Source: the human T2T-CHM13v2.0 reference genome, Homo sapiens
Assembly (NCBI RefSeq): GCF_009914755.1
Contig: NC_060930.1
Direction: 5' to 3' (one strand)
Length of the DNA stretch: 64,000 bases
This document shows, one piece after another, positions 19,021 through 61,959 of this stretch (position 1 is the stretch's first letter; every line of letters starts with the position of its first letter). The translations under genes and the position numbers were made by a program. The notes beneath the pieces were generated by a model. The model had not been told where the DNA came from, made no database searches, and was given only the letters and a program-made list of their open reading frames with translations.

Positions 19021-19364
19021 CAGGGGTCCCCAAGTCCTGGGCCTCAGACTGGTACAGGTCAATGGCCTGTTAGGAAGCTGGCAACACAGCAGGAGTTAAG
19101 CACCTCCTGAGCCAGCCTCACCACCTGAGCTCTGTCTCCTGTCAGATCAGCCAGGGCATCAGATTCTCACAGGAGAGCGAACCCTATTGTGAACTGCGAA
19201 TGCGAGGGATCTAGTTTGCATGCTCCTTATGAGAATCTAATGTCTGATGATCTTAAGTGGAACAGTTCCATCTGGAAACCATTTCCCCCACCACCCCCAC
19301 TTCCGTGGAAAAAACTGTCTTCCACGAAACTTGTCCCTGAAGCCAAAAAGGTTGAGGACTGCTG
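19021..19364 (+). mobile_element. MER1B-like hAT-Charlie DNA transposon
   Basis: CAGGGGTCCCCAA...aaaaaggttgaggactgctg termini and characteristic internal sequence. Confidence 0.8.
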
Positions 19365-22169
19365 ATGTAACTGATAAAGGACTCATGTCTATAATTTAAA
19401 GAACCTTCAAAACTCAACAGTAACAGAACAAATCAAGAAAATAAGAAAATGACACGAAGAGGGATTTCACTGAAGAGGATATGTGTATGGCAAAGACATG
19501 AGAAAATGATCAACATCCCTAGTCATTAGGAAAATGCAAATTAAGACCAGAGTGAGGTATCACTGCACACCTAATCGGAACAGTAAAAGTAAAAAAATAG
19601 TGACAATACAAAATACTGGTAAGGATGTGGAAAAACTGGATCTCTCATATATGGCTGCTGGGAATGTAAAATAGTACCACATTTCTGGAAAATAGTTCAG
19701 CAGTTTCTTTAAAAATTAAACACATACTTACCATATGACCCAGCAATCACACTCCTGGACATTTATCCCAGAGAAATGAAAATTTAGGTCCACAGAAAAA
19801 CCTGCAAGCAATTTTTCAAGACAGTTTTATTTGTAATAGGCACTCCCCCCGCCCAAAAAAAGAAGGAACCAAAATGTATGATAGGTGAATGCTGAATGAT
19901 TAAACAAACTGTGTTACACCCATAGTGTAGAACTCAGTAACAGAAAGGAACAAACTAGAAATACCTGCAATAACTTGGATAAATCTCTAGGGCATTCTGC
20001 TGAGTTGGGTGGGGTGGGGGGGTGGGGGGGATGGTGAGCTAATCTTAGAAGGTCACAAGCTGTGAGGACCAATTTATAAAACATTCCCCAAACGACAAAA
20101 TTATAGAAATGGAGAACAGACTGATGGTTGCAAAGGGTTAGGGATGGTGTGGGGGAAAGAAAGGGACGACCATAAAGGGACTGTATGAGAGAGATCTTCG
20201 TGGTGTTGAAATAGTTTGTATTTTGATTGTGGTAATGATTACAAGAGTCTTCAGGGATAAGGTGACACAGAATCACAGGCACATTTTATCTCAGTGTCAA
20301 TGTCCTGGCTTTATTATTGTGCTCTAGCTATGCGGGATGTAACCAACAGTGGAGGCTCTATCAGACCTCTCTGTACTATCTTTGCAACTTCCTGTAAGTC
20401 TACATTCAAATAAAAAGTTAAAAAAATCGGTGCCCAGGCCACATCCCAAACCTTGTAAATTAAAATATCTAGGGGAAGAACCTAAACAACTGCATTTTTT
20501 TTTTAAATGCACGAGGTAATTTTAAAGTGTAGCTAGAGTTAGGAACCACCGCCAGCTGGTATTATTACCGAAACTACAAGCAGGTGGAACACCTGTAAGT
20601 CTGGTGGAAGATGATAAGGAAGGAGAAAACTAAATATACAAATCTATGTTAGGTTTCTTGAGGGTTTTATTCTCCTAACGTTAAAACCTAGTATTAAGTG
20701 AATCCAAATAATGTGGATGGGATAATCAGTCATCCATTATGATACAGACCATTTTACACAAAATAGGCCAGCCCCAATAGACTATTCTTTAGATTCTTAA
20801 GCATTTGGTATCGATGTTACAATTTTAAAATGCTAAAAAGCAATTATAATCACATTTAAATATGCAGCAATTTTAGAAAATCAATGTTTCACCGAGTTTC
20901 TCATTTTAGATGAATAACAAAATGAGTTCAAATTTTTATTTGTGTTGACTACCACCAGCAGCGACCCGTGGGAAGTAAGTGAAAAGCAAGTATTCCTATT
21001 TTGACTACACATTCTAATGTATTGGTTATTTATATTTATGATCACCAACTATTATCTATTAGACTTCTCCGGATTTAACTGTTTAGGAAGTGAGCTGTAG
21101 ACATACAGAAACCAAGGATTATTTTGAGCCAATAAACAGTGACTTGACCAACCGAATGCCTTGTGTGGTTATTAATCATTCCATATCACCATCATCAAAA
21201 GACACTGTGCATCTACTCAGCTGGGCCAGGGGATTAAAGGTTTACGAAAGAGTCCCTCCTTGCCTTTAAACGGTTTAAAGTCTGTTTGAGGATGGGTCCA
21301 AATACATAAAATGATGAATAACAAAGCGAAGAACATGCTGAAATCTGGACTGACAAAAGAAAAGGGCCAAAGGGCTTGTTTTTACTGGAAGTATTTTTGC
21401 ATAAGCTGGGAAGGGAGTTTGCATCTTCTGGACTCATAGATCAGACAAATGAGCAGCTTCAACAAAGCAGATTTATGCTATCCACCAGGAGGGTTTTGCT
21501 TAGTTGTCAGTTGTGGACTTTCTTCCAAAAATGCAGCTGTTTTGAAGCAAGAAATCTGGCACCAAAAAATAAATAAAATGAAAATTTAGAATAAGAATTA
21601 CCTCCCACCCAACTCTAATCAACAGCTACGTCTCCCTTTCCTCCACCTTCAAGATTTAAAGGTCTGGGGTGGAAACTGGAGGTGTGGGGGGGCGAATGAG
21701 CTATTTGCCTTGCCCCAAGACCACCAATCTCCTGTGTGTGTGTCTCTCTCTCTCCAAATACGACCCTCACACACTCTCCAATTTACACTGCTACAACTTC
21801 CCAGATTTGTTTTACCTTCTGGAAAGATTTATCCATTTGGAAGCGTTCTTGAAGTTGCTAACTGTCGTGAAGTTCGATTTGAAAGCAAAACAATGACCGC
21901 GTTTTAACAGACAGTGCAAATTCTTTTTAAAAAAAAGTTGTTTTGTGATTATGGGAGATAATCAACAGCTACTCAGACATTCTTCTCTTAAACAGCTGAG
22001 GTTTATCATTTTCGCTATTATGACAATGAATTTTTTCCTCCTTTGCTTTCTGCCTTTTGGCAGGAGCCTCGACTCTGCAGGTGTTAGCGCTGTAAGGGCC
22101 GAACCCAACCGCCAGAATGTCTGCCGAGCCTAGCATGGGATGCTGCCCAGCAAAACAGCACCCAGGGAG

Positions 22170-22800
22170 AGGGCGACTGAGGAAGACAGCCTGCAAGCGC
22201 GCTTCAGAAAGGACTGGGACCAGAGCCCTAGAAAACTACAGCGAGTGGATTCCCTGGCAGGGGAAACCCGCGAGAGCCTGGGAAAAAAAAAAAAACGAGA
22301 GGGAGAGAAAAAAACTCACCCGGGCGCCCTGAAGCCCAGCGCAAGCAAGCGAGTGAGCGCGCAGGCTGGCTGGGCTGCTCCAGCTGGAAGTCATTGTGCG
22401 GGCTGGCGTCTGCGTTGTCAGGGCGACCGCCCGGCCGGCGCCAGCGGAGCGGGGGAGGCGGGCTCCGTGAATGGGTGACGTCACGCAGCCGGCGCCAGGC
22501 AGTCTGGGCGGCCGAGCCAATGAATCAGCTGTCCGGGGGAGGCAGCGCAGCGCGGCGCGCGGGAGCTGGGTGCAGGAATGCGCCTGGAGCCGCGCGGCCC
22601 GGGAGGGCGCGAGACGTCTCCGCCCGCCTGGTCGCCCCGCGGCGGCCAGAGGTCCCAGCGTCCCAGGCTCGGCCATTCCGGTGCCCCCCACGCCCAGTCT
22701 GCGGCTGTGCCCGCGTCCCTAGTTTTCCGCCGGTTACCCCCACGGGCGCGCGCTCTGCGGGGAGGCCCACGAGCTGGGGGGCCGCTGGGGTGGTGTCAGG
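22170..22800. promoter_or_regulatory. Orphan CpG island; candidate distal ID4 enhancer and lncRNA promoter
   Basis: CpG-dense and repeat-free. Contains CRE TGACGTCA 22476-22483, GGCGCC 22437 and 22491, GTCTG 22502, CCAAT 22517. Confidence 0.88.
22320..22390 (-). ncRNA. LNC-LBCS: Putative first exon of a minus-strand lncRNA running leftward (probably LNC-LBCS; start approximate)
   Basis: Strong minus-strand donor CGG|GTGAGT (GT at 22319-22318) just left of the CRE/CCAAT cluster. The name comes from recalled annotation upstream of ID4 and is not verifiable here. Confidence 0.5.
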
Positions 22801-23716
22801 ATGTTTTCACTTACTGCGACTGTGGCACTTATTTAAAAGGAAACATACAATAAAACTTGTCCTTGTAGATAAAATAGACTTTGAAAGTATTGATGAATTC
22901 ACTGCCACCTTACTGTGCTCTCCGCATTGTGCTGGGTGTTGGGTATCACAAACGATGAAAGGACCAGGACTCGGAAGTTCCCAAAATTGAACTGGGTAGA
23001 AAAAAGTGTAAGGAACTCATGATTCAGACTTACAGCCGACTGCTCTTCCAATATTCTATAGTGTGGGACTATAGGGCGCCTTTAAGGTTCTAGAAGGCAA
23101 ATGGCTCCAAAGATTTCCAATTTTTTGGTGTTTTTGTGTTTTGCATTACCTCTGTCCTGCTTTGCTCTCCATTACAGTGTCCTGTAGGTGGCCAAGTACT
23201 GGGTTAAGGTCATTTCAGTATGCCCAGCATTTGACGCTCTCCCTGACTCCTGGTAAGGACTGGACATTGTTGATGGGTAATCCACAATGCAAGAGCAAAT
23301 AATTTTAAGGCTAGAGTAAAAGGAGTACTTCTGAATTCCTAAACATCTTTTTGGGTGCTTACTTGTTGGTTTCTGGTGGTTTTTCAAGAGTAGTGATGCA
23401 TCATTACTGAAACTGGAAAACCAGAGTGTGGCCCAGACTCACATTATAGTAGATGTCGTTAAATCAGCCCTTCCTGCTGAAGTCTGTGCCCCCCTTTTTA
23501 AATCTGGAAGATGAGATCTGGTGAGATATTCTCTTAAGACTCATGAAGTTCTAGCAGTCTATCATTGTATTTATCAACCTTTCAAACGAATGACTTTATT
23601 CCTATCACAGTATGTGATATATGTGACATTCATTTAACAAACACTTCAGGGTCCCTGCTATGCAAATACTATGTACTGGAAGTTTTAACTGAAATTTTTT
23701 TGGAATAAAAGTTAAG

Positions 23717-25372
23717 GGCCTGGCGGCTCATGCCTGAATCCCAGCACTCTGTGGGGCCGAGGGAGAGTTCGAGACCAGCCTGACCAACATGGTGTCCGGA
23801 ATTGGTGGGTTCTTGGTCTCACTTACCTCAAGAATGAAGCCGCAGACCCTCGCGGTGAGTGTTACAGTTCTTAAAGGCGGCGTGTCTGGAGTTTGTTCCT
23901 TCTGATGTGTTCAGTTTCTTCCTTCTGGTGGGTTCATGGTCTCGCTGGCTCAAGAGTGAAGCTACAGACCTTCCCCGTGAGTGTTACAGCTCATAAGGCG
24001 GCCTGTCTGGAGTTGTTCATTCCTTCTGGTGGGTTTGTGGTCTCGCTGGCTTCAAGAGTGAAGCTGTAGACCTTCACGGTGAGTAGCACACAGCTCATAA
24101 AGGCAGTGGGGACCCACAGAGTAAGCAGCAGCAAGACTTATTGCAAAGGGCGAAAGAATAAAGCTTCCACAGCACCTAAGCGGACACGAACGGCTTTTTA
24201 CTGCTGGCTGGGGCAGCCTGCTTTTATTCTCTTACCTGGCCCCACCCACATCCTGCTAATTAGTCCATTTTACAGAGAGCTGAGTGGTCTGTTTGCGCTG
24301 ATTGGTGCATTTACAACCCCTGAGCTAGACACAAAGGTTCTCCACATTCCCACTAGATGATGCTAGATACAGAGTGTCCACACAAAGGTTCTCCAAGTCC
24401 CCACCAGAGTAGCTAGATACAGAGTGTCCATTGATGCACTCACAAACCCTGAGCTAGACACAGGGTGCTGATTGGTGTGTTTACAAACCTCGAGCTAGAT
24501 ACAGAGTGCTGATTGGTGTATTTACAATCCCTTAGCTAGACATAAAGATTCTCCAAGTCCCCATCAGATTCAGGAGCCCAGGTGGCTTCACCCAGTGGAT
24601 CCCGCACTGGGGCCGCAGGTGGAGCTGCCTACCAGTCCCGCGCAGTGGGCCCACACTCCTCAGCCGTTGGGTGGTGGATGGGACTGGGCACCATGGAGCA
24701 GGGGGCAGCGCTCATCAGGGAGGGTCAGGCCGCACAGGAGCCCACGGACGTCGGGGGAGGCTCAGGCATGGCGGGCTGCAGGTCCCAAGCCCTGCCCCGT
24801 GGGAAGGCAGCTAAGGCCCACCGAGAAATTGAGCACAGCAGCTGCTGGCCCAGGTGCTAAGCCCCTCACTGCCCGGGGCCGGCACCGCTGGTGGGCTGCT
24901 CTGAGTGCGGGGCCTGCCAAGCCCACGCCCACCTGGAACTCGCGCTGGCTCGCAAGCACCACCTGCAGCCCCAGTTCCCGCCCACGCCTCTCCCTCCACA
25001 CCTCCCTGCCAGCTGAGGGAGCCGTCTCCGGCCTTGTCCAGCCCAGAAAGGGGCTCCCACAGTGCAGCAGTGGGCTGAAGGGCTCCTCAAGTGTCGCCAA
25101 AGTGGGAGCCCAGGCAGAGGAGGCGACGAGAGCGAGCAAGGGCTGTGAGGACTGCCAGCACGCTGTCACCTCTCAATGGTGAAACCCCATCTCTACTAAA
25201 AAAAAAAAAAACAAATTAGCTGGGTGTGGTGATGCACGCCTGTAGTCCCAGCTACTCAGAAGGCTGAGGCAGGGGAATCACTTGAAGGTGGCAGAGGTTG
25301 CAGTGAGCCGAGATGGTGCCACTTGCACTCCCACCTGGGCAACAGAGCAAGACTCCATCTCAAAAAAAAAAA
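23717..25372 (+). mobile_element. AluS split by the LTR12 (23717-23792 and 25180-25372)
   Basis: ...ccagcctgaccaacATGG[LTR]ATGGtgaaaccccatctctac... rejoins to a contiguous Alu. Confidence 0.9.
23793..25175 (-). mobile_element. Solo LTR12 (ERV9/HERV9 LTR, LTR12C-like)
   Basis: Minus strand begins TGAGAGGTGACAGCGTGCTGGCAG and ends CCAATTCCGGACA; CCAAT-containing tandem repeats 24290-24560; 4-bp TSD ATGG (23789-23792 / 25176-25179). Confidence 0.93.
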
Positions 25373-26309
25373 GAGGGGAGAGAGAGAGAAAAAGAAAAGG
25401 AAGGAAGGAAGAAAGAAAGAGAGAAACTAGAAAACAAAGCAAGTGCTAATAAACGGGTATAGGCCAGTTTATCTTGATGTGCATGAAGTCACCTGGCAAT
25501 TGGATGAAATGCAGAAGAGGCTTGGGATTCTGCATCTTTAACAAGCCCCCAAGTGATGTTGATATTGCTAACCCTGAACTGCACTTTGAATAAAGAGAAT
25601 CTTGACCACAGAGTACCAAGGAAAGCATAAAGTAAGAATATAATGGATATAAAGTGGTCTGGGTTCCTAAAACCTGTGGAGAAGGTGAGCTTGAGCCACG
25701 TGATTGTGCATATGATTGGCTGAGGGAATGAAAAAGCAGAAGAAACAGCATAAATAACAATCGCATTGGAAGGAAAGGAGCAAAAAATAAGTTGAGGGGT
25801 GAAGAAGATTTTGTCTGACTTCAATTAAAAATATTTAGGGAAACTATAAAAAATGGGATTGAAGATTTACTGGTGGGGTAAGACAACCTTAGAGGTTACC
25901 CAATTTAATTTGGTGTAGTTGAAACTGAGCAGCAGTACAATCTCATTAGATAATGGCAGAGCTCAGAATGGAAGCCGAACCTGAGAAATTTAGATGACAA
26001 ATACCTTACACATAGAGTCTTTGATATAAGAAAAGCCACTTGTCATTGTTGTGCAAGGTGAAAATATGAGGGAAGAACGAAAACAAGCGAAGAGACCCAT
26101 AGGAAATAATATTAATAGTCCAAGCATGGAGTTTTGGGGAAGGTTTGGTCTAGGGAAGATGAGAAAATATCAGGTGAAGAGGTGAATCAGAAAAATTTTG
26201 TGTTTGCATGAATTGTAATGGCTGCCACCAGCTGATTAAATCATCCATTTATGTAAGAAAAGGAAAAAACTTCCCTCCATCCCTCCCATGGTCCAATGAA
26301 GCATTTTTC

Positions 26310-28838: not shown

Positions 28839-30345
28839 AAAGCAATTATTTTTACACATATGAATCACTAAAAACATAGGGGCAGGGGAAGGACTAAAAC
28901 TGCCCATAATCCCATCAACCTGAGACAATCTCTATTTAACATTTAGAGCAAATCTAGTTGATTTTCTATATGTAAATAAATATCCATATACTATGTAATT
29001 TTTACAGAAATGGCATTATATTATGCATATGTTTTGTTGCTTGCTTTTTCCCCCTCTTAGCCGTGTAGAGTGAGTAACATCTTTTTATGTCAATAACCCC
29101 TCACCCTCATCATTATCCATTGTATGGAAGAGAACTCTTTAATGAGATCAATTTCCCCTCCAGAAGCAGGAAACCTGGGCAGAAGCATTCCATGAGAAAC
29201 CTCACCTGCCTGTTTGATGTTCATCCGTTCAGAATTTCCTAAGGCAGTTTAATCCCATTGTTTCTCAACTACTTTCCGTTTCTTTGAGGGCCTAACAGCC
29301 CGCAAGAAAAGGGGAATGCAGTGGTCAATCATTAACCTGCTCCAACGAGAGAGACAACTCAGAAAGAAAACAAAAACACTTTTTTTTTTTTTTTGGCAAG
29401 ACCTAGTTCAAAATCTTATAGTTTTTTTCCGCGAATTGTTTTCAGTCCTCTTTCCCATACGCCGTTGTCTTTGTCTCCCTAGCCTACACGCACACCTCCC
29501 TTCAGATAATTTTTAACTTACGCTCTTTATTTCTTAACAAAAATAATGACATGACTTGCTCTCCCAGAGCTCTGACCTTAGGTTTGTTCTAGCTGCAACA
29601 CTAGTATAGACCATTCTATTAATTATGAATGTATTCATGTGTATAGAGGCAATGGTAGACCAGTGGTAATGTTACCTTATTCTGGAGACTTACACTTATA
29701 AATAAATAATGAGATGCTTCTGTGAAATGCCTTTAGCAAAGGCAGGGGAAAGCATTACTTCTCGAAAGACTGTACATTTGAAAGATTGAAAGGTGATACC
29801 AAAGGCTCTTCAATAACATATAAACCACGTCTGTGGAAAAAAAGAAAATAACATGAAAGAAGTGAACTGGAAATTCTATAATGCTAAATTGGGGACCAAA
29901 ATTTTCTAGATGGCAAGTGTAAAATCTAAGTGAACAGAACAGAGAACCTAAAATAGATTCTTGGAGATGTAGGAAAACTGATCTCTGATCCTCCAAATAT
30001 CTTTCTATGTTATACATTTAAAATACATCACTACATTTAAAAATCTGAGATGTTATTTATAATAAAATGCTACATTCCCATCATATCCTGTTAAAGATGG
30101 TATTGAAAAGTTGTGTTAAGTAATTCCAATGAGAGATTGGTATGTATGATTGATTGGTTATTATTAAACAGCATTTTTTTCTATCTTAACTAACTTATAT
30201 TGGGCTTGTGTATTAAGCTAGATATTCAAGTCTAGATACTAATTAAAACAGCTTCATGAAGTATAGTGGCCACTGGCTTCCTGGGAACATTTTTTCTGCG
30301 CTGAATATTCTAGTCAGTTTCTAGCAAATAGAAAATGCTTTGTGG

Positions 30346-37294: not shown

Positions 37295-38214
37295 TATACT
37301 GATCTTTCCAAATCACAAATACTATCACTGATTTCCCATCCTTTTCACAATGAATTCAGACCCCTTGGCTGGCATCAAAGGCCTTTGTCATTCTAAGCCC
37401 TGATTCAACATCCAGCTCCAGTTCCTGCCATGCCTCCCAGGCAGGGAATGTGCTGCAGGTGGAATGGAACTTAAAAGACCATGGTACCACATGTCTCCAT
37501 GTCTTTTGCATGAGTTTCCTCTGCCTCATGCATGTTGTCTAAGCCTCTTTCCATAGCACTTTATGAATGCCTGTATTAGCACCTATCCACTATATAGTAA
37601 AACCTATTTACCTTATCTGAGTTCATCCAAAAGACCACTGGATCCATATAGCTTGGCCCATTACTTAACACACAACTGTTTCTCAATGTATATTTGGGAT
37701 CAATGAATGAATTAAAGAGACACTGCCATAACTAGTGTGGCGAAATTCGAGGGTAAAGGGAGAACCTGGAATGAGATGAGATGCATAAGGTACCACTATG
37801 TATGAAGATAACTATATCCCAGGTTATATACATACTTTTATTAAGATGCTGCTGCTAAATCTCTCAGAAATACTGTTGTTCACTCGTGTCCAAGAGTGTA
37901 TCATAGTCAACAGATTTTTCAGTAACATTTGGTTTAAAAAAATATCCTTCTTGGACCATAATAATAAAGGAAAATTTGAGATACCCTGACAGTGGCATCA
38001 GAAACACACACACACACATACATATCTATGTATGTGTGTGTGTGTATATTACTTAAAGTAAAACATAAGCATAGCTACATCTTTGAATGGATTTTTCTAA
38101 GGCTTTTGTCTGTGCTATTTCTGTTTATTCTTCCTGATTGCAGATCTCAGTTGTTATCTGTTGGGTCTGAGATCTTCATAGGTCTAACTCGGGTCCTAAT
38201 TTTCCTCAAAAGTT

Positions 38215-54719: not shown

Positions 54720-55015
54720 CCACAGCGTTGACGGAATGGAGTGCCCTTCCCATTGGCCCGAGCGTCATTCCCCGAGGTGGCACTGCCCGCCTGATTGGCT
54801 GGCCACTCCAGACCCCCCGCCCACTCCTCCACTCGGGTAGCCGGACTCCCCGCCCCCCAGCACCGCCCGGAGCCCCCGCCCTCGCCTCTCCCTCCGCGCC
54901 CCCGCCCGCGCGCCCAGCGGGCTCCGCTCGGCTCGCGCTGCGACCCGGCCCGCGCGCTGGTCCCGCCCCCGGGGCGCACGGCTCTATAAATACAGCTGCG
55001 CGGCGGGCCGGGCGA
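54720..55015 (+). promoter_or_regulatory. ID4: ID4 proximal promoter
   Basis: TATAAATA 54985-54992, E-box CAGCTG 54993-54998, inverted CCAAT boxes (ATTGG 54752, 54794), half-CRE CGTCA 54763, multiple CCCGCCC GC boxes. Confidence 0.9.
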
Positions 55016-55398
55016 GAGCGTAGTGGAGGAGGCGCGGTTGTGAGTAGTACCGGGAGTGGGGTGATCCCGGGCTAGGGGAGCGCGGCGGCCGCGATCGGGC
55101 TTAGTCGGAGCTCCGAAGGGAGTGACTAGGACACCCGGGTGGGCTACTTTTCTTCCGGTGCTTTTGCTTTTTTTTTCCTTTGGGCTCGGGCTGAGTGTCG
55201 CCCACTGAGCAAAGATTCCCTCGTAAAACCCAGAGCGACCCTCCCGTCAATTGTTGGGCTCGGGAGTGTCGCGGTGCCCCGAGCGCGCCGGGCGCGGAGG
55301 CAAAGGGAGCGGAGCCGGCCGCGGACGGGGCCCGGAGCTTGCCTGCCTCCCTCGCTCGCCCCAGCGGGTTCGCTCGCGTAGAGCGCAGGGCGCGCGCG
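55015..55398 (+). other. ID4: ID4 5'UTR (TSS approximate)
   Basis: Start inferred ~30 nt downstream of TATAAATA (54985-54992); GC-rich leader. Confidence 0.75.
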
Positions 55399-55839
55399 AT
55401 GAAGGCGGTGAGCCCGGTGCGCCCCTCGGGCCGCAAGGCGCCGTCGGGCTGCGGCGGCGGGGAGCTGGCGCTGCGCTGCCTGGCCGAGCACGGCCACAGC
55501 CTGGGTGGCTCCGCAGCCGCGGCGGCGGCGGCGGCGGCAGCGCGCTGTAAGGCGGCCGAGGCGGCGGCCGACGAGCCGGCGCTGTGCCTGCAGTGCGATA
55601 TGAACGACTGCTATAGCCGCCTGCGGAGGCTGGTGCCCACCATCCCGCCCAACAAGAAAGTCAGCAAAGTGGAGATCCTGCAGCACGTTATCGACTACAT
55701 CCTGGACCTGCAGCTGGCGCTGGAGACGCACCCGGCCCTGCTGAGGCAGCCACCACCGCCCGCGCCGCCACACCACCCGGCCGGGACCTGTCCAGCCGCG
55801 CCGCCGCGGACCCCGCTCACTGCGCTCAACACCGACCCG
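55399..55839 (+). CDS. ID4: Inhibitor of DNA binding 4, coding exon 1 (codons 1-147)
   Basis: ATG at 55399 gives [38 protein letters not shown](A)10R...[42 protein letters not shown]. This is an ID-type HLH domain lacking a basic region, followed by a Pro-rich tract and the D-box RTPLTALN. Donor CCG|GTGAGA at 55839/55840. Confidence 0.99.
55513..55542 (+). repeat. ID4: GCN polyalanine-coding repeat (10 Ala, (GCG)6 core)
   Basis: gca gcc (gcg)6 gca gcg. Confidence 0.95.
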
Positions 55840-56227
55840 GTGAGAGGCCGGGCGCCGGCCGTGGGCGGACGCCGCGGGGGATGGGAGGTTGGTGGCGTGG
55901 TGGCGGGACGCGGGCGCTCACCGTCCTCCGGGCAGGGGCGGGCCAGGAATGACAGCCCCCTCCCCCTGCTCCTCCGGGCTCCCCCGGGCCGCCAGCAGCC
56001 GGCCGGGCTCGGCGAGCGCGGGTCCGGGAGAACGCGCAGGGCGGGACTCGGGGCTGTGGGCGCCCTGGGCTGTCAAGTCCCGCCTGAGCCCGGAGGGGCC
56101 CCCCCGGCTACAGGCTGGGGTGGGGGCGTCGGCGCGCCAGCCTGATTTCCGAGGACAATCCAGGACCGTGTCGAGCGCGTTGTTTGCGCCTGCTAACCTT
56201 TCCCTTGGTGTTCGGTTGCTGTTCCAG

Positions 56228-56272
56228 GCCGGCGCGGTGAACAAGCAGGGCGACAGCATTCTGTGCCGCTGA
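56228..56272 (+). CDS. ID4: ID4 coding exon 2 (AGAVNKQGDSILCR-stop); exon continues to 56286
   Basis: Acceptor ctgttccag|GCC in phase 0; 147+14 = 161 aa, the known ID4 length; donor CAG|GTGAGC at 56286/56287. Confidence 0.98.
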   Translation, partial: AGAVNKQGDSILCR

Positions 56273-56790
56273 GCCGCGCTGTCCAGGTGAGCGCGCATTT
56301 CCCGTCTCGGGTGGCCGGTCACCAGAGACGCCCGTCCCCGAGGGCTTCCGGGGCCAGGCACCGCGGTGTTCTTTGCCCCCAGCGTTTCTGAGAGCAAACT
56401 CCCAAGGAAGTAAATCCCCTCTCTCCCTGCCACCTAAGTAGCAAGTAAACCCGTACTTAGCCTTAGAACTCGAGGTTCAGTCTCGGTGGAGACGGGTCAG
56501 CCCTTGTCCCCGCCGTCCCCGTGTTTTTTCTGGTGGTCAGCGGGCTCTTCTGCCTTCCCTAGTTCCCGAGGGAGGGCACCCTCGTGGGCATGGGAGCTGC
56601 CCCGGTGTCCTCCCGTGCAGTCTGTCACCCACAAAGGGGGACGCGGGCAGGGCGCCGGAGTGGGTCCCCTCTCCGGGCTTCCCGAGGGCCGCAGCTGCCT
56701 GCTCGGCGCCTGGCCCGGCCGCGGGCGGGTGTTGTCTGACCTGGTGGTTTGTTTTGGGTTGTTGATCAAGCATGTCTTGAGTTTGGTCGG

Positions 56791-56807
56791 TGGCGCCAGT
56801 TAGTCTG
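56791..56807 (+). promoter_or_regulatory. Bipartite BMP response element (Smad1/5 + Smad4) in ID4 intron 2
   Basis: TGGCGCC-agtta-GTCTG, exact GGCGCC-N5-GTCT spacing. Confidence 0.75.
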
Positions 56808-58302
56808 CAGCGAGAAGGTTCACACACCCCCTCTATTCATTCCTCTTCCACAGGTGTGCGGCCGCCTGAGCCCGAGCCAGGAGCACTAGAGAGGGAGGGG
56901 GAAGAGCAGAAGTTAGAGAAAAAAAGCCACCGGAGGAAAGGAAAAAACATCGGCCAACCTAGAAACGTTTTCATTCGTCATTCCAAGAGAGAGAGAGGAA
57001 AGAAAAATACAACTTTCATTCTTTCTTTGCACGTTCATAAACATTCTACATACGTATTCTCTTTTGTCTCTTCATTTATAACTGCTGTGAATTGTACATT
57101 TCTGTGTTTTTTGGAGGTGCAGTTAAACTTTTAAGCTTAAGTGTGACAGGACTGATAAATAGAAGATCAAGAGTAGATCCGACTTTAGAAGCCTACTTTG
57201 TGACCAAGGAGCTCAATTTTTGTTTTGAAGCTTTACTAATCTACCAGAGCATTGTAGATATTTTTTTTTTACATCTATTGTTTAAAATAGATGATTATAA
57301 CGGGGCAGAGAACTTTCTTTTCTCTGCAAGAATGTTACATATTGTATAGATAAATGAGTGACATTTCATACCATGTATATATAGAGATGTTCTATAAGTG
57401 TGAGAAAGTATATGCTTTAATAGATACTGTAATTATAAGATATTTTTAATTAAATATTTTTTTGTAAATATTATGTGTGTGTTTTTTTTTAATCTATGGG
57501 AATATTTCTTTTGGAAAATCATTTTTCAGCTCAATTACAGAGCTCTTGATATCTTGAATGTCTTTTCTGTTTGGCCTGGCTCTTAATTTGCTTTTGTTTT
57601 GCCCAGTATAGACTCGGAAGTAACAGTTATAGCTAGTGGTCTTGCATGATTGCATGAGATGTTTAATCACAAATTAAACTTGTTCTGAGTCCATTCAAAT
57701 GTGTTTTTTTAAATGTAGATTGAAATCTTTGTATTTGAAGCATACATGTTGAAAATACACCTTATCAGTTTTTAAGTACAGGGTTTTATAGTGTAATATA
57801 TACAGAGTAAGTGTTTGTTTTTGTTTTTCAACTGAGGTCAAAATGGATTCTGAATGATTTTGCATATGGGATGAGGAAATGCTTGGATCCTTAAGGAGTT
57901 TACGAAATCTGCTGTTTTATCAAAGTGAAAAAAAATTGCTTATTACTCTTCATTTTACACTAAAGCTTAATGTCACTAAGTTTCATGTCTGTACAGATTA
58001 TTTAAATCATGGAAATGAAAAAAATGTTCTCTGCTTGCTACCAAAGGACAAACTCTTGGAAATGAACACTTTCTGCTTTCCTTCCTCCAAAGAATTAATA
58101 GGCAACAGTGGGAGAAAAAAAAGGCATAATGGCAAATCCTTCAAGCAGGGATAAAAGTCGATCTTCAAACATTAACTTAAGCAGACCAAAAATTCTGATG
58201 ACCGCATCTAGATTATTTTTTTATAAAAATGATTTTCACTATAGCTATGTTACGCTAAGCTACTGTCCAATCTCTTGTGATGTGTAACTTTTACATGTGA
58301 AT

Positions 58303-58308
58303 ATTAAA
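58303..58308 (+). terminator. ID4: Proximal ID4 poly(A) signal ATTAAA
   Basis: ATTAAA with upstream TGTA and downstream GU/U-rich tract; use would give a ~2.4 kb mRNA. Confidence 0.65.
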
Positions 58309-59819
58309 GTAGATTTCTCTGTCTTGTACTGTGATTTCTGGTCTCATTTCTTTAAAACCTTACTCTTATTTTTCTTTTAAGGCTCTTTTTTCTCCTTAAG
58401 GAAGGTAATATTTTCTAGGTTAGATAGGACTATCAGGGTTTGTGAACATTATGCATTTAATGTTATGGGTACTTTACACACAAGTTAGATGGAATTTTTA
58501 GAGTGAAAGAATTAAGTAGGATTTAATTGGGTGCTTTGTAAATAGTCAACTGTGTGTATAACGTGGTCTGTTTGATTTTTAAAAGGAAAGGATTTGTTTC
58601 AGATTATACAAGAATAAAAGTATTATAGACCCAAGGGACTTCTTATGAGGTCAAATTCAGATATTTATATGAATATGAAATACCATGGTCCCTAGTAGTC
58701 AGTTGAAGTGGCAATGTCTAAACAGAAATGAACAAAACTAATGCTAGCAGGTTAAAATCAATCAAAATGTTTAAAAATTGATTCTGTCCTCAGCATGTTA
58801 CTTCCTCAGCTCTGATAATTTACTGGTCTTGAGTATTTTGAGAATTTGATGTTGAACGTTATAAAGTCAAAGAACTGCTTGTTTAGATGAGGTTTATTTT
58901 TATTTTTGATATTATTCATTCTTGTCACACATCAAGAAGAAAACACTAGAGTGCTGCTGGAATTCCAAATCTGAAGAATTCTAACGACTGCATTCTTTGT
59001 TATTAAAAAGGGCACAATCCTTCCTTTTTATTTGGCAGTTTAATTTCAGTAGGAAGCATGTCACATGTGCACTGTTGGTTAGAATTATGCATCTGTCATG
59101 CCTGACTGCTGAACCCTACCTAAGCCTTTTGGCGCAGTTTAAAACTTATACTGGTGGACTGTGAACCTCAAAACAAATGGGTATTTTTGGGTTTTGAGGA
59201 TAGATGTTACTCCTTAAAGTTTGTATTTGGGGCATGAAAAACTACTGAAAGAAGAAAAGTGCTACAGATACTACATTTCAAAGAGTTGGCATTTTCCCTT
59301 TGGCCACTCAAGCAGCATTTGATGTATCTAAAGAAACAAAGTCATTGTTTATTTTTTAAAAAATTATATGCAGTTGTACAAGATACTACATTCCATTGAA
59401 ATGTTGGCTATGTCCTAACCAGGCAACCAGATAACAAAAACATTTTGAGTCTTTTATCTAGGTAGTTCTAATTATTCAGCTACTTAGTTTAACAAAGGAA
59501 AATATCCTGACTTCTCTCATTTCATTTGTAGACTTTTCATTGTATAGGCACAACCAAAGAGTCAGACTGGTTTAAAACTCCAGAAGGAAAAAAAGTATCC
59601 CACACAGTGGATGTTGTTTCTAAGAATGCTACAAAATCCTGACATCTCAGACATCTCAATGTTAAAGGAAGAAAAAAAATACCTTTTCATTTCAAAGAAC
59701 TAATATACTTTGATATTGTGTAAACCTTACTCAAGTTTATTGTCAAGCTTTAACTGCCTTTTTAGAACTTTTTAAAATTTCGAGCCCACAAATCTATTGT
59801 ATTAGTTGCCTTCTATAAC

Positions 59820-59825
59820 AATAAA
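59820..59825 (+). terminator. ID4: Distal ID4 poly(A) signal AATAAA
   Basis: AATAAA followed ~25 nt later by a GT/T-rich element (gagtttgtggttttt). Confidence 0.85.
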
Positions 59826-61959
59826 TCTTCACTGAGCAAAAGGCTCTGGAGTTTGTGGTTTTTAATTGACTTTTACTGAGTTATGCAATTTTTCATTATC
59901 CAGAATGGGCCTCTTGATGGATCACCTCAATTATTTACAGTGTTTCTTACCATGTTATGAAAAGTGGCGATATGAATGGAAAGAAAATCTAGTTTGAATG
60001 CTGGAGAAAGCTTCTCTACTCTAGTCCCTGCTTAGGATAGGAAGCAATATTCCTAAAGAAGGCAGCAGGATGATGTCCAGGGAAAACTAATTAAAAAAAA
60101 AAAGTTAAACAATGCAGACAATTTATTTCACAGTAGTACAGAGCCAAATGAAACTGGCTCTGCCTTTCTAGCTGGTGCACTTTAATTATATATATGTTAA
60201 TCAGCCTAGATAGCCTTTGGGTCTCGACAGGGCCAAACACCAAACCCTGCAGGCTTATGAGGAAGGAAAACCTTCCCGTTTCTGCTTTGCAAGTCCAGGA
60301 AATTAATTTAACCCGTCTCAGAATGAATCTTAATAGGGCTGCCCTCAGTAGGTATTCTTCAGACCCAGATGATTTCTTTCAATTACAACCCAGGATATTT
60401 TGCTAAAATATTAGTTATATTAATTAGAACCATTGCCCAAAAGGTTTTAGGATTGTAACTTTACTTACAGTTCTACCTTGAGCACTGATTTGATCGATAC
60501 TTTAAAAGATATAACCCTTACAAACGAGAACTAATTTGTTCAAGGGAGACAACCCGCAGTCATATATACTTAATTGAAAATGCTCTCAAATTTGCTATGA
60601 ATTTGTAAAGTGTGTTTTGCATTCAAGTGCCTCCTTCATATTTATTCATATTCTGGCTCCTGCTAAAAAGTTTTGCCTAAGTGTTAAAACTTAGGTCTCA
60701 ACCACATTGCCAAAGGTTTTCTATACTTACCAAAGCCAAAGTAAGGCCATGGTGAGGCTGCTGGAGTTCCATCATTCATAAGTCTTCACAGTAAATCCAC
60801 ACATGGGATATGAAAAGAGCTGTAAAAATTGAAGTAACTTGAAAAGCCCCTCTGAGTCCATAAGAGTAAACACTTCAGTTTCTGGGGAAAGAAGAACAAA
60901 ATGCATTATCTGTATTCCACTGGCTAAGATATAACTGAAGAGGAATTGAACTTAAAATGTTTAAATAAAGAGACCCATGAAAAATTTTCTACATGAACCC
61001 ATGAAATTTTTTTTAATAAGAAACCTCACACTTTAGATGAGAATTTTCTAAGAGATTACATTAATATTAGCACAATATGCAAATTCCTGGTGAAACAAGG
61101 CACTATTATTTGCCTTTAGTTACTGTTTCCCAATTCTTTATGATATAAAATACCTATCAGGACTTTGGGCAGGCATATAAAAGTCACATTTTAAAATGCT
61201 ATCTTTTATTTCAAAGTTTAATTTCCGAAGGAAAGTATTGTACTTGTAGAGTTCTTCATGCAAGTTCATAGACTGTTTCTTAAGTATTTATTTAAATATC
61301 CTCTTAAATATTTTAAATGTTTTTCAAATACTACTTCCTTCATAAGGTTTAGCAGTTAATTGAGTGATTGTAGTTAAGTATGAGTGTGTATGTCTAAAAA
61401 TAGTTCACCGACATACAGAAAAATATCTTTCAAAAGGGATTTTTACTCTAAAAAGTAAGTAAACTTTTCTCTATTTTCTCTCCTTTTTTAGTTCCTAAGA
61501 TTGGGAATTTCCATAAAGGTGTACCTTCCATTTTTTTGGACTGCTATAACCAACCATATTATGTTTAAGCATAAGGCAGGACCGAAACTAAAGAACAGGT
61601 GAATCAACTGTCATGTATATATCATCTCCTAGAATCTGGTTTAACCTCATGATTAATTTCAGAGAGAGCGAGAGAGAAATAGGGAAGTTCTTATTTGTAG
61701 GTCAAACCTCAGAGAAAGCCAGGAAAACAGACATAAACTTATAGACCAAAATTTTACAACTTACCTAAGCAATAATTATTGGAAACACTTTTCATACAAG
61801 TTTAACCTGAGTCCACAGCTGTAGTTAAAACAAAGTAGGGTTCTTTGTTTGAGACTTTTCTTTGCCTGTCCTGCGGTGCCTAACAAAGTAACCTTGTAAA
61901 ATATTTGTTACTAACTGAACTGAATGCCCCCTTAAGAGTCTCTTCCCAGAGTATTTAGT

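What the first reader, a model, noticed from the sequence alone, without database searches (positions are those of the whole stretch)
22400..22531. Orphan CpG island 32.5 kb upstream of ID4 looks like a displaced paralog of the ID1 BMP-response enhancer
Seen: an ordered cassette GGCGACCGCCC (22422-32) - GGCGCC (22437-42) - GGCTCC (22461) - TGAATGGGTGACGTCAC (full CRE 22476-83) - GGCGCC-N5-GTCTG (22491-22506) - CCAAT (22517). Established: ID genes are direct BMP-Smad1/5 targets, and GGCGCC-N5-GTCT is the canonical Smad1/5-Smad4 composite site. From memory, the ID1 enhancer ~1 kb upstream reads roughly ggcgaccgccc..ggcgccagc...tgaatgggtgacgtcac...ggcgtc-N5-gtctg, with the same order and orientation relative to the gene. 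Inference: this is an ancient duplicated enhancer retained from the vertebrate genome duplications and pushed far from ID4. It would be the main BMP/cAMP-ATF input to ID4.
Basis: partly seen in the sequence, partly recalled or inferred. Interest (0 to 1): 0.82.

Follow-up and report, generated by a model that had tools for sequence, protein, structure and literature searches.

The report
Distal ID4 copy of ID BMP-response enhancer
A 96-base stretch 32.5 kb upstream of ID4 is a true sister copy of the well-known BMP- and cAMP-responsive enhancer found just upstream of ID1, ID2 and ID3, and here it also sits at the start site of a long non-coding RNA.

Summary
Every motif is at the stated coordinate.

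- **Homology:** The stretch 22414-22509 is colinear with the upstream BMP-response regions of ID1 (about -985 to -896), ID2 (about -3.2 kb) and ID3 (about -3.0 kb), in the same orientation relative to each gene.
- **Non-circular test:** A sequence profile built only from the ID1/ID2/ID3 elements finds this site as the only further significant hit in the human genome (41.9 bits, E 2.4e-7; next best 19.1 bits).
- **Spacing:** ID1, ID2 and ID4 share identical spacing of five blocks over 85 bp with no indels.
- **Duplication:** RNF144A-ID2-MBOAT2 and RNF144B-ID4-MBOAT1 synteny supports origin by block or genome duplication.

- **Not orphan:** The conserved block ends 10 bp from the annotated LNC-LBCS start site (22404, minus strand).
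- **"Main BMP input" untested:** A second exact GGCGCC-N5-GTCTG lies in ID4 intron 2 (56792).
- **Prior literature:** Papers already report SMAD1/5-bound, ID-like composite motifs near ID4, but their coordinates are in supplements I could not open.
- **Not testable here:** Conservation in other vertebrates and factor binding.

Verdict: a new member of a known kind, of moderate interest.

The parts
22414..22509 (+). Conserved cassette: the paralog of the ID1/ID2/ID3 BMP-response module
   Evidence: A profile built from ID1-3 only hits 22414-22509 at 42 bits, E 4.5e-12 in the window, and 41.9 bits, E 2.4e-7 genome-wide. blastn matches to ID2 (68/94) and ID1 (86/132).
22422..22432 (+). Block 1, GC-rich GGCGACCGCCC (GGCRRYCGCC in all four paralogs)
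   Evidence: Identical 12-mer in ID1.
22437..22445 (+). Palindromic GC-type SMAD1/5 site GGCGCC followed by AGC (GGCGCCAGC)
   Evidence: Found 15 bp after the start of block 1 in ID1, ID2 and ID4; absent at that place in ID3.
22467..22484 (+). GTGAATGGG + full palindromic CRE TGACGTCA (22476-22483) + C
   Evidence: A 17-mer is identical to ID1. It is the only full CRE in 264 kb around ID4. The ID1 counterpart at -920 is a CREB/CRTC2-bound, forskolin-responsive CRE (PMC6656544 passages).
22491..22506 (+). Composite SMAD1/5-SMAD4 site GGCGCC-N5-GTCTG
   Evidence: It has the same register in all four paralogs. The motif class is defined in PMC3203580, PMC5832415 and PMC11907993.
22461..22466 (+). 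GGCTCC (reverse of the low-affinity GGAGCC site), specific to ID4
   Evidence: Present but not shared with the paralogs at this position. It may be chance.
22517..22521 (+). CCAAT box outside the conserved block, about -113 to -117 from the LNC-LBCS start site
   Evidence: Not present at this place in ID1 or ID2. The likely role as a promoter element of the lncRNA is inference.
22320..22404 (-). LNC-LBCS exon 1; the start site at 22404 lies 10 bp from the cassette edge
   Evidence: RefSeq annotation (given; NR_134649/50/51). The start-site base on the minus strand is A preceded by C (read).
22160..22889 (.). CpG island holding the cassette and the lncRNA start site
   Evidence: 200-base windows with GC >= 0.55 and observed/expected >= 0.65; core 22300-22800 GC 0.74, o/e 0.90.
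56792..56807 (+). Second exact composite GGCGCC-N5-GTCTG, in ID4 intron 2, 46 bases before exon 3: a rival or partner BMP input
   Evidence: ID3 has a similar site in the sense strand about 70 bp before an apparent splice acceptor (22/29 identical, E 0.75).
55014..59841 (+). ID4, the presumed target gene
   Evidence: It is the only protein-coding gene between RNF144B (1.3 Mb upstream of the cassette) and MBOAT1 (258 kb downstream of ID4). That it is the target is inference.

Best explanation
Window 22414-22509 is the ID4 member of an old family of BMP-response modules. One copy lies upstream of each of the four ID genes.

**Shown here**
- It is homologous to the ID1, ID2 and ID3 modules and has the same orientation relative to its gene.
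- In ID1, ID2 and ID4 the five blocks have base-for-base identical spacing: GC-rich block, GGCGCC at +15, CRE at +54, second GC site at +69, GTCT at +80.
- It carries the canonical composite GGCGCC-N5-GTCTG and a perfect CRE.

**Inferred mechanism**
- After BMP stimulation, phospho-SMAD1/5 binds the GGCGCC sites and SMAD4 binds GTCTG five bases away.
- CREB/ATF dimers bind the CRE seven bases upstream of the composite.
- The fixed spacing suggests one cooperative complex that recruits co-activators.
- The complex would act on the ID4 promoter 32.5 kb away by looping.
- It would also drive local initiation of LNC-LBCS, whose start site lies 10 bp beyond the cassette on the other strand. The element is therefore both an enhancer and a lncRNA promoter.
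- The intron-2 composite probably adds to the BMP response of ID4.
For: - **Colinear similarity:** matches to ID2 (68/94, E 7e-11), ID1 (86/132, E 5e-10) and ID3 (33/42, E 5e-4), each on the gene-sense strand.
- **Shuffle control:** 0 of 300 shuffles reach the observed score for any of the three loci.
- **Non-circular profile test:** model R1 was built from ID1/2/3 only. It gives one hit in the window (42 bits, E 4.5e-12; next best 3.3 bits). Genome-wide, it finds the three training loci, then this site (41.9 bits, E 2.4e-7), then nothing above 19.1 bits.
- **Spacing:** identical in ID1, ID2 and ID4.
- **Divergence:** no gap columns among ID1, ID2 and ID4 over 96 bases, at 66-69% identity, comparable with 63-73% in 175 bases of HLH-coding DNA.
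- **Synteny:** RNF144A-ID2-MBOAT2 versus RNF144B-ID4-MBOAT1. Each ID gene also has an E2F gene within 0.05-2.8 Mb.
- **Local rarity:** only two composites and one full CRE occur in 264 kb around ID4.
- **Gene desert:** ID4 sits in a gene desert.
- **Literature, passages read:**
  - ID-like composites occur in SMAD1-bound regions near ID1/2/3/4 (PMC11907993).
  - 8 of the top 10 pSMAD1/5-preferring peaks flank BMP targets, ID4 among them, and the top peaks carry GGCGCC(N5)GTCT (PMC5832415).
  - The ID1 CRE at -920 is bound by CREB/CRTC2 and is needed for the forskolin response of the -985/-863 fragment (PMC6656544).
  - Id4 is among the factors up at 1 h of BMP4 (PMC2900302).
Against: - No binding, chromatin-contact or perturbation data for this site could be reached. 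The papers that report SMAD-bound regions near ID4 give coordinates only in supplements, which are closed, so the bound site could be the intron-2 composite instead.
- The cassette abuts a lncRNA start site, so its activity could be spent on that promoter.
- The RefSeq functional-element track lists no enhancer here. It lists a 'silent region' at 22323-22372, next to the cassette.
- Orthologs in other vertebrates were not examined.
- In one search only 149 of 31,265 first-look candidates were scored, so uniqueness in the genome is not absolute.
Confidence: 0.7

Rival explanations
1. The cassette works mainly or only as the proximal promoter of LNC-LBCS. ID4 does not depend on it.
For: - The start site at 22404 (minus strand) is 10 bp from the cassette.
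- The CRE, the GC-rich sites and the CCAAT box lie at about -70 to -117, the usual layout of a CpG-island promoter.
- Among the four paralogs, only the ID4 cassette abuts an annotated start site.
Against: - The homologous modules act on ID1, ID2 and ID3.
- The orientation relative to ID4 is preserved.
- ID4 is the only protein-coding gene for 1.3 Mb upstream and 258 kb downstream.
- Promoters of lncRNAs often act as enhancers as well (general knowledge).
Confidence: 0.15
2. The BMP response of ID4 runs mainly through the intron-2 composite at 56792-56807. The distal cassette is redundant or specific to some cell types.
For: - It is an exact GGCGCC-N5-GTCTG in the sense strand, 1.8 kb from the ID4 start site.
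- ID3 has a similarly placed site.
- Published SMAD-bound regions 'proximal to' or 'flanking' ID4 are not located in the text I could read.
Against: - The intronic site lacks the rest of the cassette. The profile model scores nothing there beyond 3.3 bits at 56690-56717 on the other strand.
- It has no CRE.
- ID1 and ID2 have no counterpart.
Confidence: 0.25
3. The resemblance is a chance or convergent cluster of common GC-rich motifs in a CpG island.
For: GGCGCC, CRE and CCAAT motifs are common in CpG islands.
Against: - Genome-wide E 2.4e-7 for a profile that never saw ID4, with a 23-bit gap to the next hit.
- 0 of 300 shuffles reach the observed score.
- Identical spacing over 85 bp and identical 12- and 17-mers with ID1.
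Confidence: 0.03
4. The cassette was copied into the ID4 region later, by ectopic duplication or gene conversion from ID1 or ID2, rather than being retained since the genome duplications.
For: The distance from ID4 (32.5 kb) differs from the 1-3 kb seen at the other three genes.
Against: - Divergence from each paralog (59-69%) is as deep as in the coding HLH region and has the same ranking, with ID2 closest and ID3 farthest.
- No flanking similarity suggests a recent copy.
- Only 5,011 of 32,504 intervening bases are masked repeats, so the distance is not a recent insertion effect.
Confidence: 0.04

Closest known systems
ID1 BMP-response region with CRE (human -985/-863 fragment; Katagiri 2002, Korchynskyi & ten Dijke 2002 and Lopez-Rovira 2002 seen only as reference-list entries; CRE work in PMC6656544)
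   Same: - Same five blocks in the same order and with identical spacing.
- Identical GGCGACCGCCCG and TGAATGGGTGACGTCAC.
- Same orientation relative to the gene.
   Different: - ID1 has GGCGTC rather than GGCGCC in the composite, and several AGAC boxes downstream.
- ID1's module is 0.9-1.0 kb from its gene; ID4's is 32.5 kb away and abuts a lncRNA start site.
ID2 upstream BMP-response element (about -3.1 kb here; Nakahiro 2010 not held; the GGCGCCNNNNNGTCTG in human and mouse Id2 is stated in PMC3439458)
   Same: - Closest paralog by score (68/94; 66/96 over the cassette with no gaps).
- Same spacing and the same exact composite.
- The loci share RNF144-ID-MBOAT synteny.
   Different: ID2 has only a CRE half-site (GGCGTCA) where ID4 and ID1 have the full palindrome. 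The distance to the gene is 3.1 kb.
ID3 upstream BMP-response element (about -3.0 kb here; Xenopus id3 BRE of von Bubnoff 2005 and Yao 2006 as described in PMC3439458)
   Same: Block 1, a CRE-like TGACGTCC and the exact composite, in the same order and orientation. ID3 also shares an intronic composite with ID4.
   Different: ID3 lacks the first GGCGCC, has a net 11 extra bases, and has the lowest identity (56/95).
Drosophila Dpp silencer and activation elements (GRCGNC-N5-GTCTG type), as described in PMC11907993 and PMC3439458
   Same: The composite at 22491-22506 fits the same two-site, five-base-spacer grammar that recruits Schnurri with Mad/Medea.
   Different: The resemblance is one of grammar only. 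No sequence homology beyond the composite was tested or is claimed.

Membership tests
ID-type BMP-response element (SMAD1/5-SMAD4 composite) | GC-type SMAD1/5 site GGCGCC | tested here: met
   22437-22442 and 22491-22496.
ID-type BMP-response element (SMAD1/5-SMAD4 composite) | SMAD4 site GTCT(G) exactly 5 bases downstream, in the productive orientation | tested here: met
   GGCGCC-AGGCA-GTCTG at 22491-22506. The spacing and orientation rules are from PMC11907993 and PMC3203580.
ID-type BMP-response element (SMAD1/5-SMAD4 composite) | Sequence homology to the ID1/ID2/ID3 modules beyond the composite | tested here: met
   Profile built from ID1-3 only: 41.9 bits, E 2.4e-7 genome-wide, the sole extra hit. 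Spacing is identical.
ID-type BMP-response element (SMAD1/5-SMAD4 composite) | BMP-induced SMAD1/5 and SMAD4 occupancy in cells | not testable with these tools
   Papers report SMAD-bound, composite-positive regions near ID4, but their coordinates are in closed supplements. Only two composites exist within 264 kb.
ID-type BMP-response element (SMAD1/5-SMAD4 composite) | Confers BMP inducibility on a reporter or on the endogenous gene | not testable with these tools
   This needs a reporter assay, a deletion or CRISPRi.
cAMP response element (CREB/ATF site) | Full palindrome TGACGTCA | tested here: met
   22476-22483. It is the only one in 264 kb. The flanks are identical to the CREB-bound ID1 CRE.
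cAMP response element (CREB/ATF site) | CREB/ATF occupancy and an unmethylated central CpG | not testable with these tools
   No ChIP or methylation data are available here. The CpG-island context makes an unmethylated state plausible, but that is inference.
Paralogous enhancer retained from the vertebrate genome duplications | A copy at each duplicate gene, with matching order and orientation | tested here: met
   All four ID loci carry one, in sense orientation.
Paralogous enhancer retained from the vertebrate genome duplications | The host genes lie in paralogous chromosome blocks | tested here: met
   RNF144A-ID2-MBOAT2 versus RNF144B-ID4-MBOAT1; an E2F gene near each ID gene; KDM1A/KDM1B; SOX11/SOX4.
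Paralogous enhancer retained from the vertebrate genome duplications | Orthologs of each copy across jawed vertebrates | not testable with these tools
Orphan CpG island (no annotated start site) | No annotated transcript start within the island | tested here: not met
   Three RefSeq LNC-LBCS transcripts start at 22404 on the minus strand (annotation given).

The most novel reading that the evidence does not exclude
The ID BMP/cAMP module is a single enhancer that predates the vertebrate genome duplications, and its base-pair architecture has been kept at all four ID genes. At ID4 it ended up 32.5 kb away and became the promoter of LNC-LBCS. On this reading LNC-LBCS is an immediate-early BMP- and cAMP-induced transcript, and ID4's BMP response depends on long-range contact. 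The intron-2 composite, shared with ID3, would be a second ancient BMP input.
Probability: 0.35. Interest if true: 0.65.

Novelty: new member of a known kind. Interest (0 to 1): 0.5.

Why it matters
ID4 is a known immediate-early BMP target, but in the literature I could search its BMP-response element is not placed or dissected as those of ID1, ID2 and ID3 have been.

- **A concrete target for experiments:** Pinning it to a 96-base module 32.5 kb upstream gives a precise target for deletion and reporter work.
- **A conserved-spacing example:** The module is as conserved among paralogs as the HLH-coding DNA and shows no indels between ID1, ID2 and ID4. This is a clean case for studying why spacing is fixed in a SMAD-CREB enhancer.
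- **A prediction for the lncRNA:** The element abuts the LNC-LBCS start site. LNC-LBCS, studied as a tumour-suppressor lncRNA (PMC6585145; other papers seen only in the listing), should therefore itself be BMP- and cAMP-regulated and co-regulated with ID4.
- **Variant interpretation:** Non-coding variants in the ID4 gene desert could be read against this element.

Tried and rejected
- **Own-genome DNA search.** A search with the 132 bases found only the site itself. The method is too insensitive for 65-72% identity, so this says nothing about paralogs.
- **Pattern search.** The pattern CGTCNC-N5-6-GGCGYC-N5-GTCTG found exactly the four ID loci. It was derived from those four, and the reversed control gave 3 hits, so I use it only to show that no fifth locus matches.
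- **Wider search for paralogous non-coding blocks.** I compared the window with 5-7 kb upstream of ID1-3. Of 517 hits, 508 overlapped masked repeats plus or minus 60 bases and were dropped. The 9 that remained were:
  - the cassette (3 hits);
  - ID exon 1 coding sequence (4 hits);
  - 19190-19300, which one search showed to be an interspersed repeat with thousands of first-look candidates;
  - 38084-38126, which is AT-rich and inverted and which I regard as chance.
- **ID4 intron 2 against the three loci.** Only the weak ID3 match came up.
  - No held paper places or dissects a distal ID4 BMP-response element or describes the four-way paralogy.
  - One search was badly posed (min_terms 2) and returned nothing useful.
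  - von Bubnoff 2005, Blitz & Cho 2009 and Nakahiro 2010 are not held, so I cannot exclude that one of them already shows an Id4 element.
  - PMC8714076, PMC11078759, PMC4806459, PMC2688288, PMC10048071, PMC5267474 and PMC12501261 held nothing on the location of an ID4 element.
  - Supplements were closed (Figure 5-source data 1 of PMC5832415; Additional file 2 of PMC11907993). They may hold the coordinates that would settle whether this site is the published SMAD-bound region.
Full report
**What is in the sequence**

One search shows, on the plus strand:
- GGCGACCGCCC at 22422-22432
- GGCGCC at 22437-22442
- GGCTCC at 22461-22466
- GTGAATGGGTGACGTCAC at 22467-22484, with the full CRE at 22476-22483
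- GGCGCC-AGGCA-GTCTG at 22491-22506
- CCAAT at 22517-22521

The stretch lies in a small CpG island of about 22160-22889. Its core 22300-22800 has GC 0.74, CpG observed/expected 0.90 and 61 CpGs.

**Comparison with ID1, ID2 and ID3**

I fetched 5-7 kb upstream of each paralog from the same reference genome and compared 22300-22700 with them. Each locus gave its best hit at one place, on the strand that is sense for that gene:

| Paralog | Locus coordinates | Position relative to start site | Match | E-value |
|---|---|---|---|---|
| ID1 | L001:4018-4149 | about -983 to -852 | 86/132 | 5e-10 |
| ID2 | L002:3814-3906 | about -3187 to -3095 | 68/94 | 7e-11 |
| ID3 | L003:4658-4618 | about -2990 to -2950 | 33/42 | 5e-4 |

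The ID1 hit covers the fragment used in the literature as the -985/-863 BMP- and cAMP-responsive region, with its CRE at about -920 (PMC6656544, passages).

**Is it more than chance?**

- The local alignment score of 22400-22531 against each paralog locus was reached by 0 of 300 dinucleotide shuffles (z 12.5, 12.2 and 5.3).
- I built a sequence-only profile from the ID1, ID2 and ID3 elements alone, so that ID4 played no part in it.
  - In the 64 kb window, with all filters off, it gives one hit: 22414-22509 on the plus strand, 42 bits, E 4.5e-12. The next best scores 3.3 bits.
  - In the whole genome it returns the three training loci (85.8, 85.2 and 70.5 bits), then chr6:19,676,414-19,676,509, which is this site (41.9 bits, E 2.4e-7). 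Nothing else exceeds 19.1 bits (E 3.1; three copies on chromosome 7).
  - Caveat: the tool scored 149 of 31,265 first-look candidates.
- A pattern drawn from all four copies hits only the four ID loci genome-wide. That test is circular for the four, and its reversed control gave 3 hits.

**Architecture**

In ID1, ID2 and ID4 the five blocks are at identical offsets from the start of block 1: GGCGCC at +15, the CRE or CRE-like site at +54, the second GC site at +69 and GTCT at +80. ID3 lacks the first GGCGCC and has a net 11 extra bases.

| Pair | 96-base cassette | 175 bases of HLH-coding DNA |
|---|---|---|
| ID4-ID1 | 64/96, no gap columns | 110/175 |
| ID4-ID2 | 66/96, no gap columns | 128/175 |
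| ID1-ID2 | 63/96, no gap columns | 125/175 |
| ID4-ID3 | 56/95, 13 gap columns | 112/172 |

The enhancer is thus about as conserved between paralogs as the coding helix-loop-helix region. In both, ID2 is closest to ID4. ID3 is the most diverged in the cassette and has the lowest blastn score in the coding exon, although its coding identity to ID4 (112/172) slightly exceeds ID1's.

ID4 has the most complete version: both palindromic GGCGCC sites, the full CRE and the exact composite. ID1 has GGCGTC in the composite, ID2 has only a CRE half-site, and ID3 has TGACGTCC. GGCTCC at 22461 and CCAAT at 22517 are not shared with the paralogs.

**Origin**

- The human genome itself shows that the ID loci lie in paralogous blocks:
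  - RNF144A(+)-ID2(+)-MBOAT2(-) on chromosome 2 matches RNF144B(+)-ID4(+)-MBOAT1(-) on chromosome 6.
  - An E2F gene lies within 0.05-2.8 Mb of each ID gene (E2F2-ID3, E2F3-ID4, E2F1-ID1, E2F6-ID2).
  - KDM1A/KDM1B and SOX11/SOX4 add to the pattern.
- That these blocks date from the early vertebrate genome duplications is established knowledge, not a result obtained here.
- A late copy is unlikely. Divergence is deep and there is no flanking similarity. Only 5,011 of the 32,504 bases between the cassette and the ID4 start site are masked repeats.
- Whether the distal position is derived ('pushed away') or ancestral cannot be told from one genome.

**Context**

- The island is not orphan. Three RefSeq LNC-LBCS transcripts start at 22404 on the minus strand (annotation given), 10 bp from the edge of the conserved block.
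- Measured from that start site, the CRE lies at about -72 to -79, the composite at -87 to -102 and the CCAAT box at -113 to -117.
- At the other three genes no annotated start site abuts the module:
  - The ID1 module lies about 300 bp beyond the 3' end of a short divergent lncRNA.
  - The ID2 and ID3 modules lie inside lncRNA gene bodies.
- ID4 is the only protein-coding gene between RNF144B, which ends 1.3 Mb upstream of the cassette, and MBOAT1, 258 kb downstream of ID4.

**A second BMP-type site**

- GGCGCC-N5-GTCT occurs twice in the window, at 22491 and at 56792. The second is in ID4 intron 2, with 46 bases between its end and exon 3.
- In 264 kb around ID4 (chr6:19,554,001-19,818,000) these are the only two composites, even with the relaxed GRCGNC or GGAGCC first half. 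The cassette's CRE is the only full TGACGTCA.
- Genome-wide, the exact 16-base composite occurs 410 times (214 + 196), against 153 for the reversed control. Two within 35 kb is therefore far from chance.
- ID3 has a similarly placed sense-strand composite about 70 bp before an apparent splice acceptor. It aligns weakly to the ID4 one (22/29, E 0.75). ID1 and ID2 have none.
- This site is a real rival or partner for the BMP input to ID4.

**Literature** (passages read unless stated otherwise)

- PMC11907993 (section 8 read in full) reports 'ID-like' GGCGCC-N5-GTCTG composites in 45 SMAD-bound regions across data sets, including regions proximal to ID1/2/3/4. It shows that the 5-base spacing and the orientation are required.
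- PMC5832415 reports that 8 of the top 10 pSMAD1/5-preferring peaks flank BMP targets, ID4 among them, and that the top 50 peaks carry the composite.
- PMC3203580 defines the GC site plus SBE with a 5-base spacer at ID1, ID2 and ID3.
- PMC3439458 describes the Xenopus id3 element and notes the near-identical Id2 element.
- PMC2900302 lists Id4 among the factors up at 1 h of BMP4.
- None of these gives the position of the ID4 site in the text I could read, and the supplements are closed.
- Ten searches found no held paper that places or dissects a distal ID4 element or describes the four-way paralogy.
- Three likely sources are not held.

**Mechanism**

Shown: homology, motif content, spacing, and position relative to the lncRNA start site and to ID4.

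Inferred from the known behaviour of the homologous ID1-3 modules and of the motif classes:
- BMP-activated SMAD1/5-SMAD4 binds the composite and the upstream GGCGCC.
- CREB/ATF binds the CRE seven bases upstream of the composite.
- The fixed spacing points to one cooperative complex.
- That complex activates ID4 over 32.5 kb and fires LNC-LBCS locally.

I put about 0.9 on the homology, about 0.8 on SMAD and CREB occupancy in responsive cells, about 0.65 on a real contribution to ID4 induction, and about 0.35 on it being the main input.

**Verdict**

- The core of the interpretation, a displaced paralog of the ID1 element that is old, is supported.
- 'Orphan' is wrong, and 'main input' is open.
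- This is a new member of a well-known kind of element. It is probably already visible as a peak in published ChIP-seq tables, but in what I could search it is not described as a full-length, spacing-exact paralog sitting on a lncRNA start site.
- Interest is moderate.

Noticed in passing
window 56792-56807 (+), ID4 intron 2; L003:672-657 (-), inside ID3: A second exact GGCGCC-N5-GTCTG lies in ID4 intron 2, 46 bases before the 3'-UTR exon. ID3 has a sense-strand counterpart about 70 bp before an apparent splice acceptor (22/29 identical, E 0.75). ID1 and ID2 have none. This may be a second old BMP element shared by ID3 and ID4.
   Followed up: partly
G000 chr1:23389478-23389493 (-), about 3 kb beyond the 3' end of ID3: The genome-wide list shows a third exact composite at the ID3 locus, downstream of the gene, so ID3 carries three within about 8 kb. 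Its context was not examined.
   Followed up: no
window 22323-22372: RefSeq lists a 'silent region' (silencer-type functional element) inside LNC-LBCS exon 1, 42 bp from the cassette. No enhancer element is listed over the cassette itself.
   Followed up: no
window 22612-22619: AGACGTCT, two abutting SMAD-box halves, lies about 105 bp past the composite inside the same CpG island. It is not aligned with the AGAC boxes that follow the ID1 composite.
   Followed up: no
window 19100-19400: This stretch is not in the masked-repeat list but is an interspersed repeat: 4,421 first-look candidates genome-wide, 40 scored, at 81-84% identity. It explains a spurious match to the ID2 upstream locus.
   Followed up: yes
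window 24580-25120: A second GC-rich stretch (GC 0.69) has a low CpG observed/expected ratio (0.40) and partly overlaps masked repeats, just upstream of the LOC105374963 start at 25568. It is not a CpG island by the usual measure.
   Followed up: no
window 28957-29522: RefSeq lists a 'NANOG hESC enhancer' between the cassette and ID4, inside LOC105374963.
   Followed up: no
G000 chr2 and chr6: Gene order and strands match between RNF144A-ID2-MBOAT2 and RNF144B-ID4-MBOAT1. Both ID genes follow a gene desert of 1.4-1.6 Mb after the RNF144 gene.
   Followed up: partly
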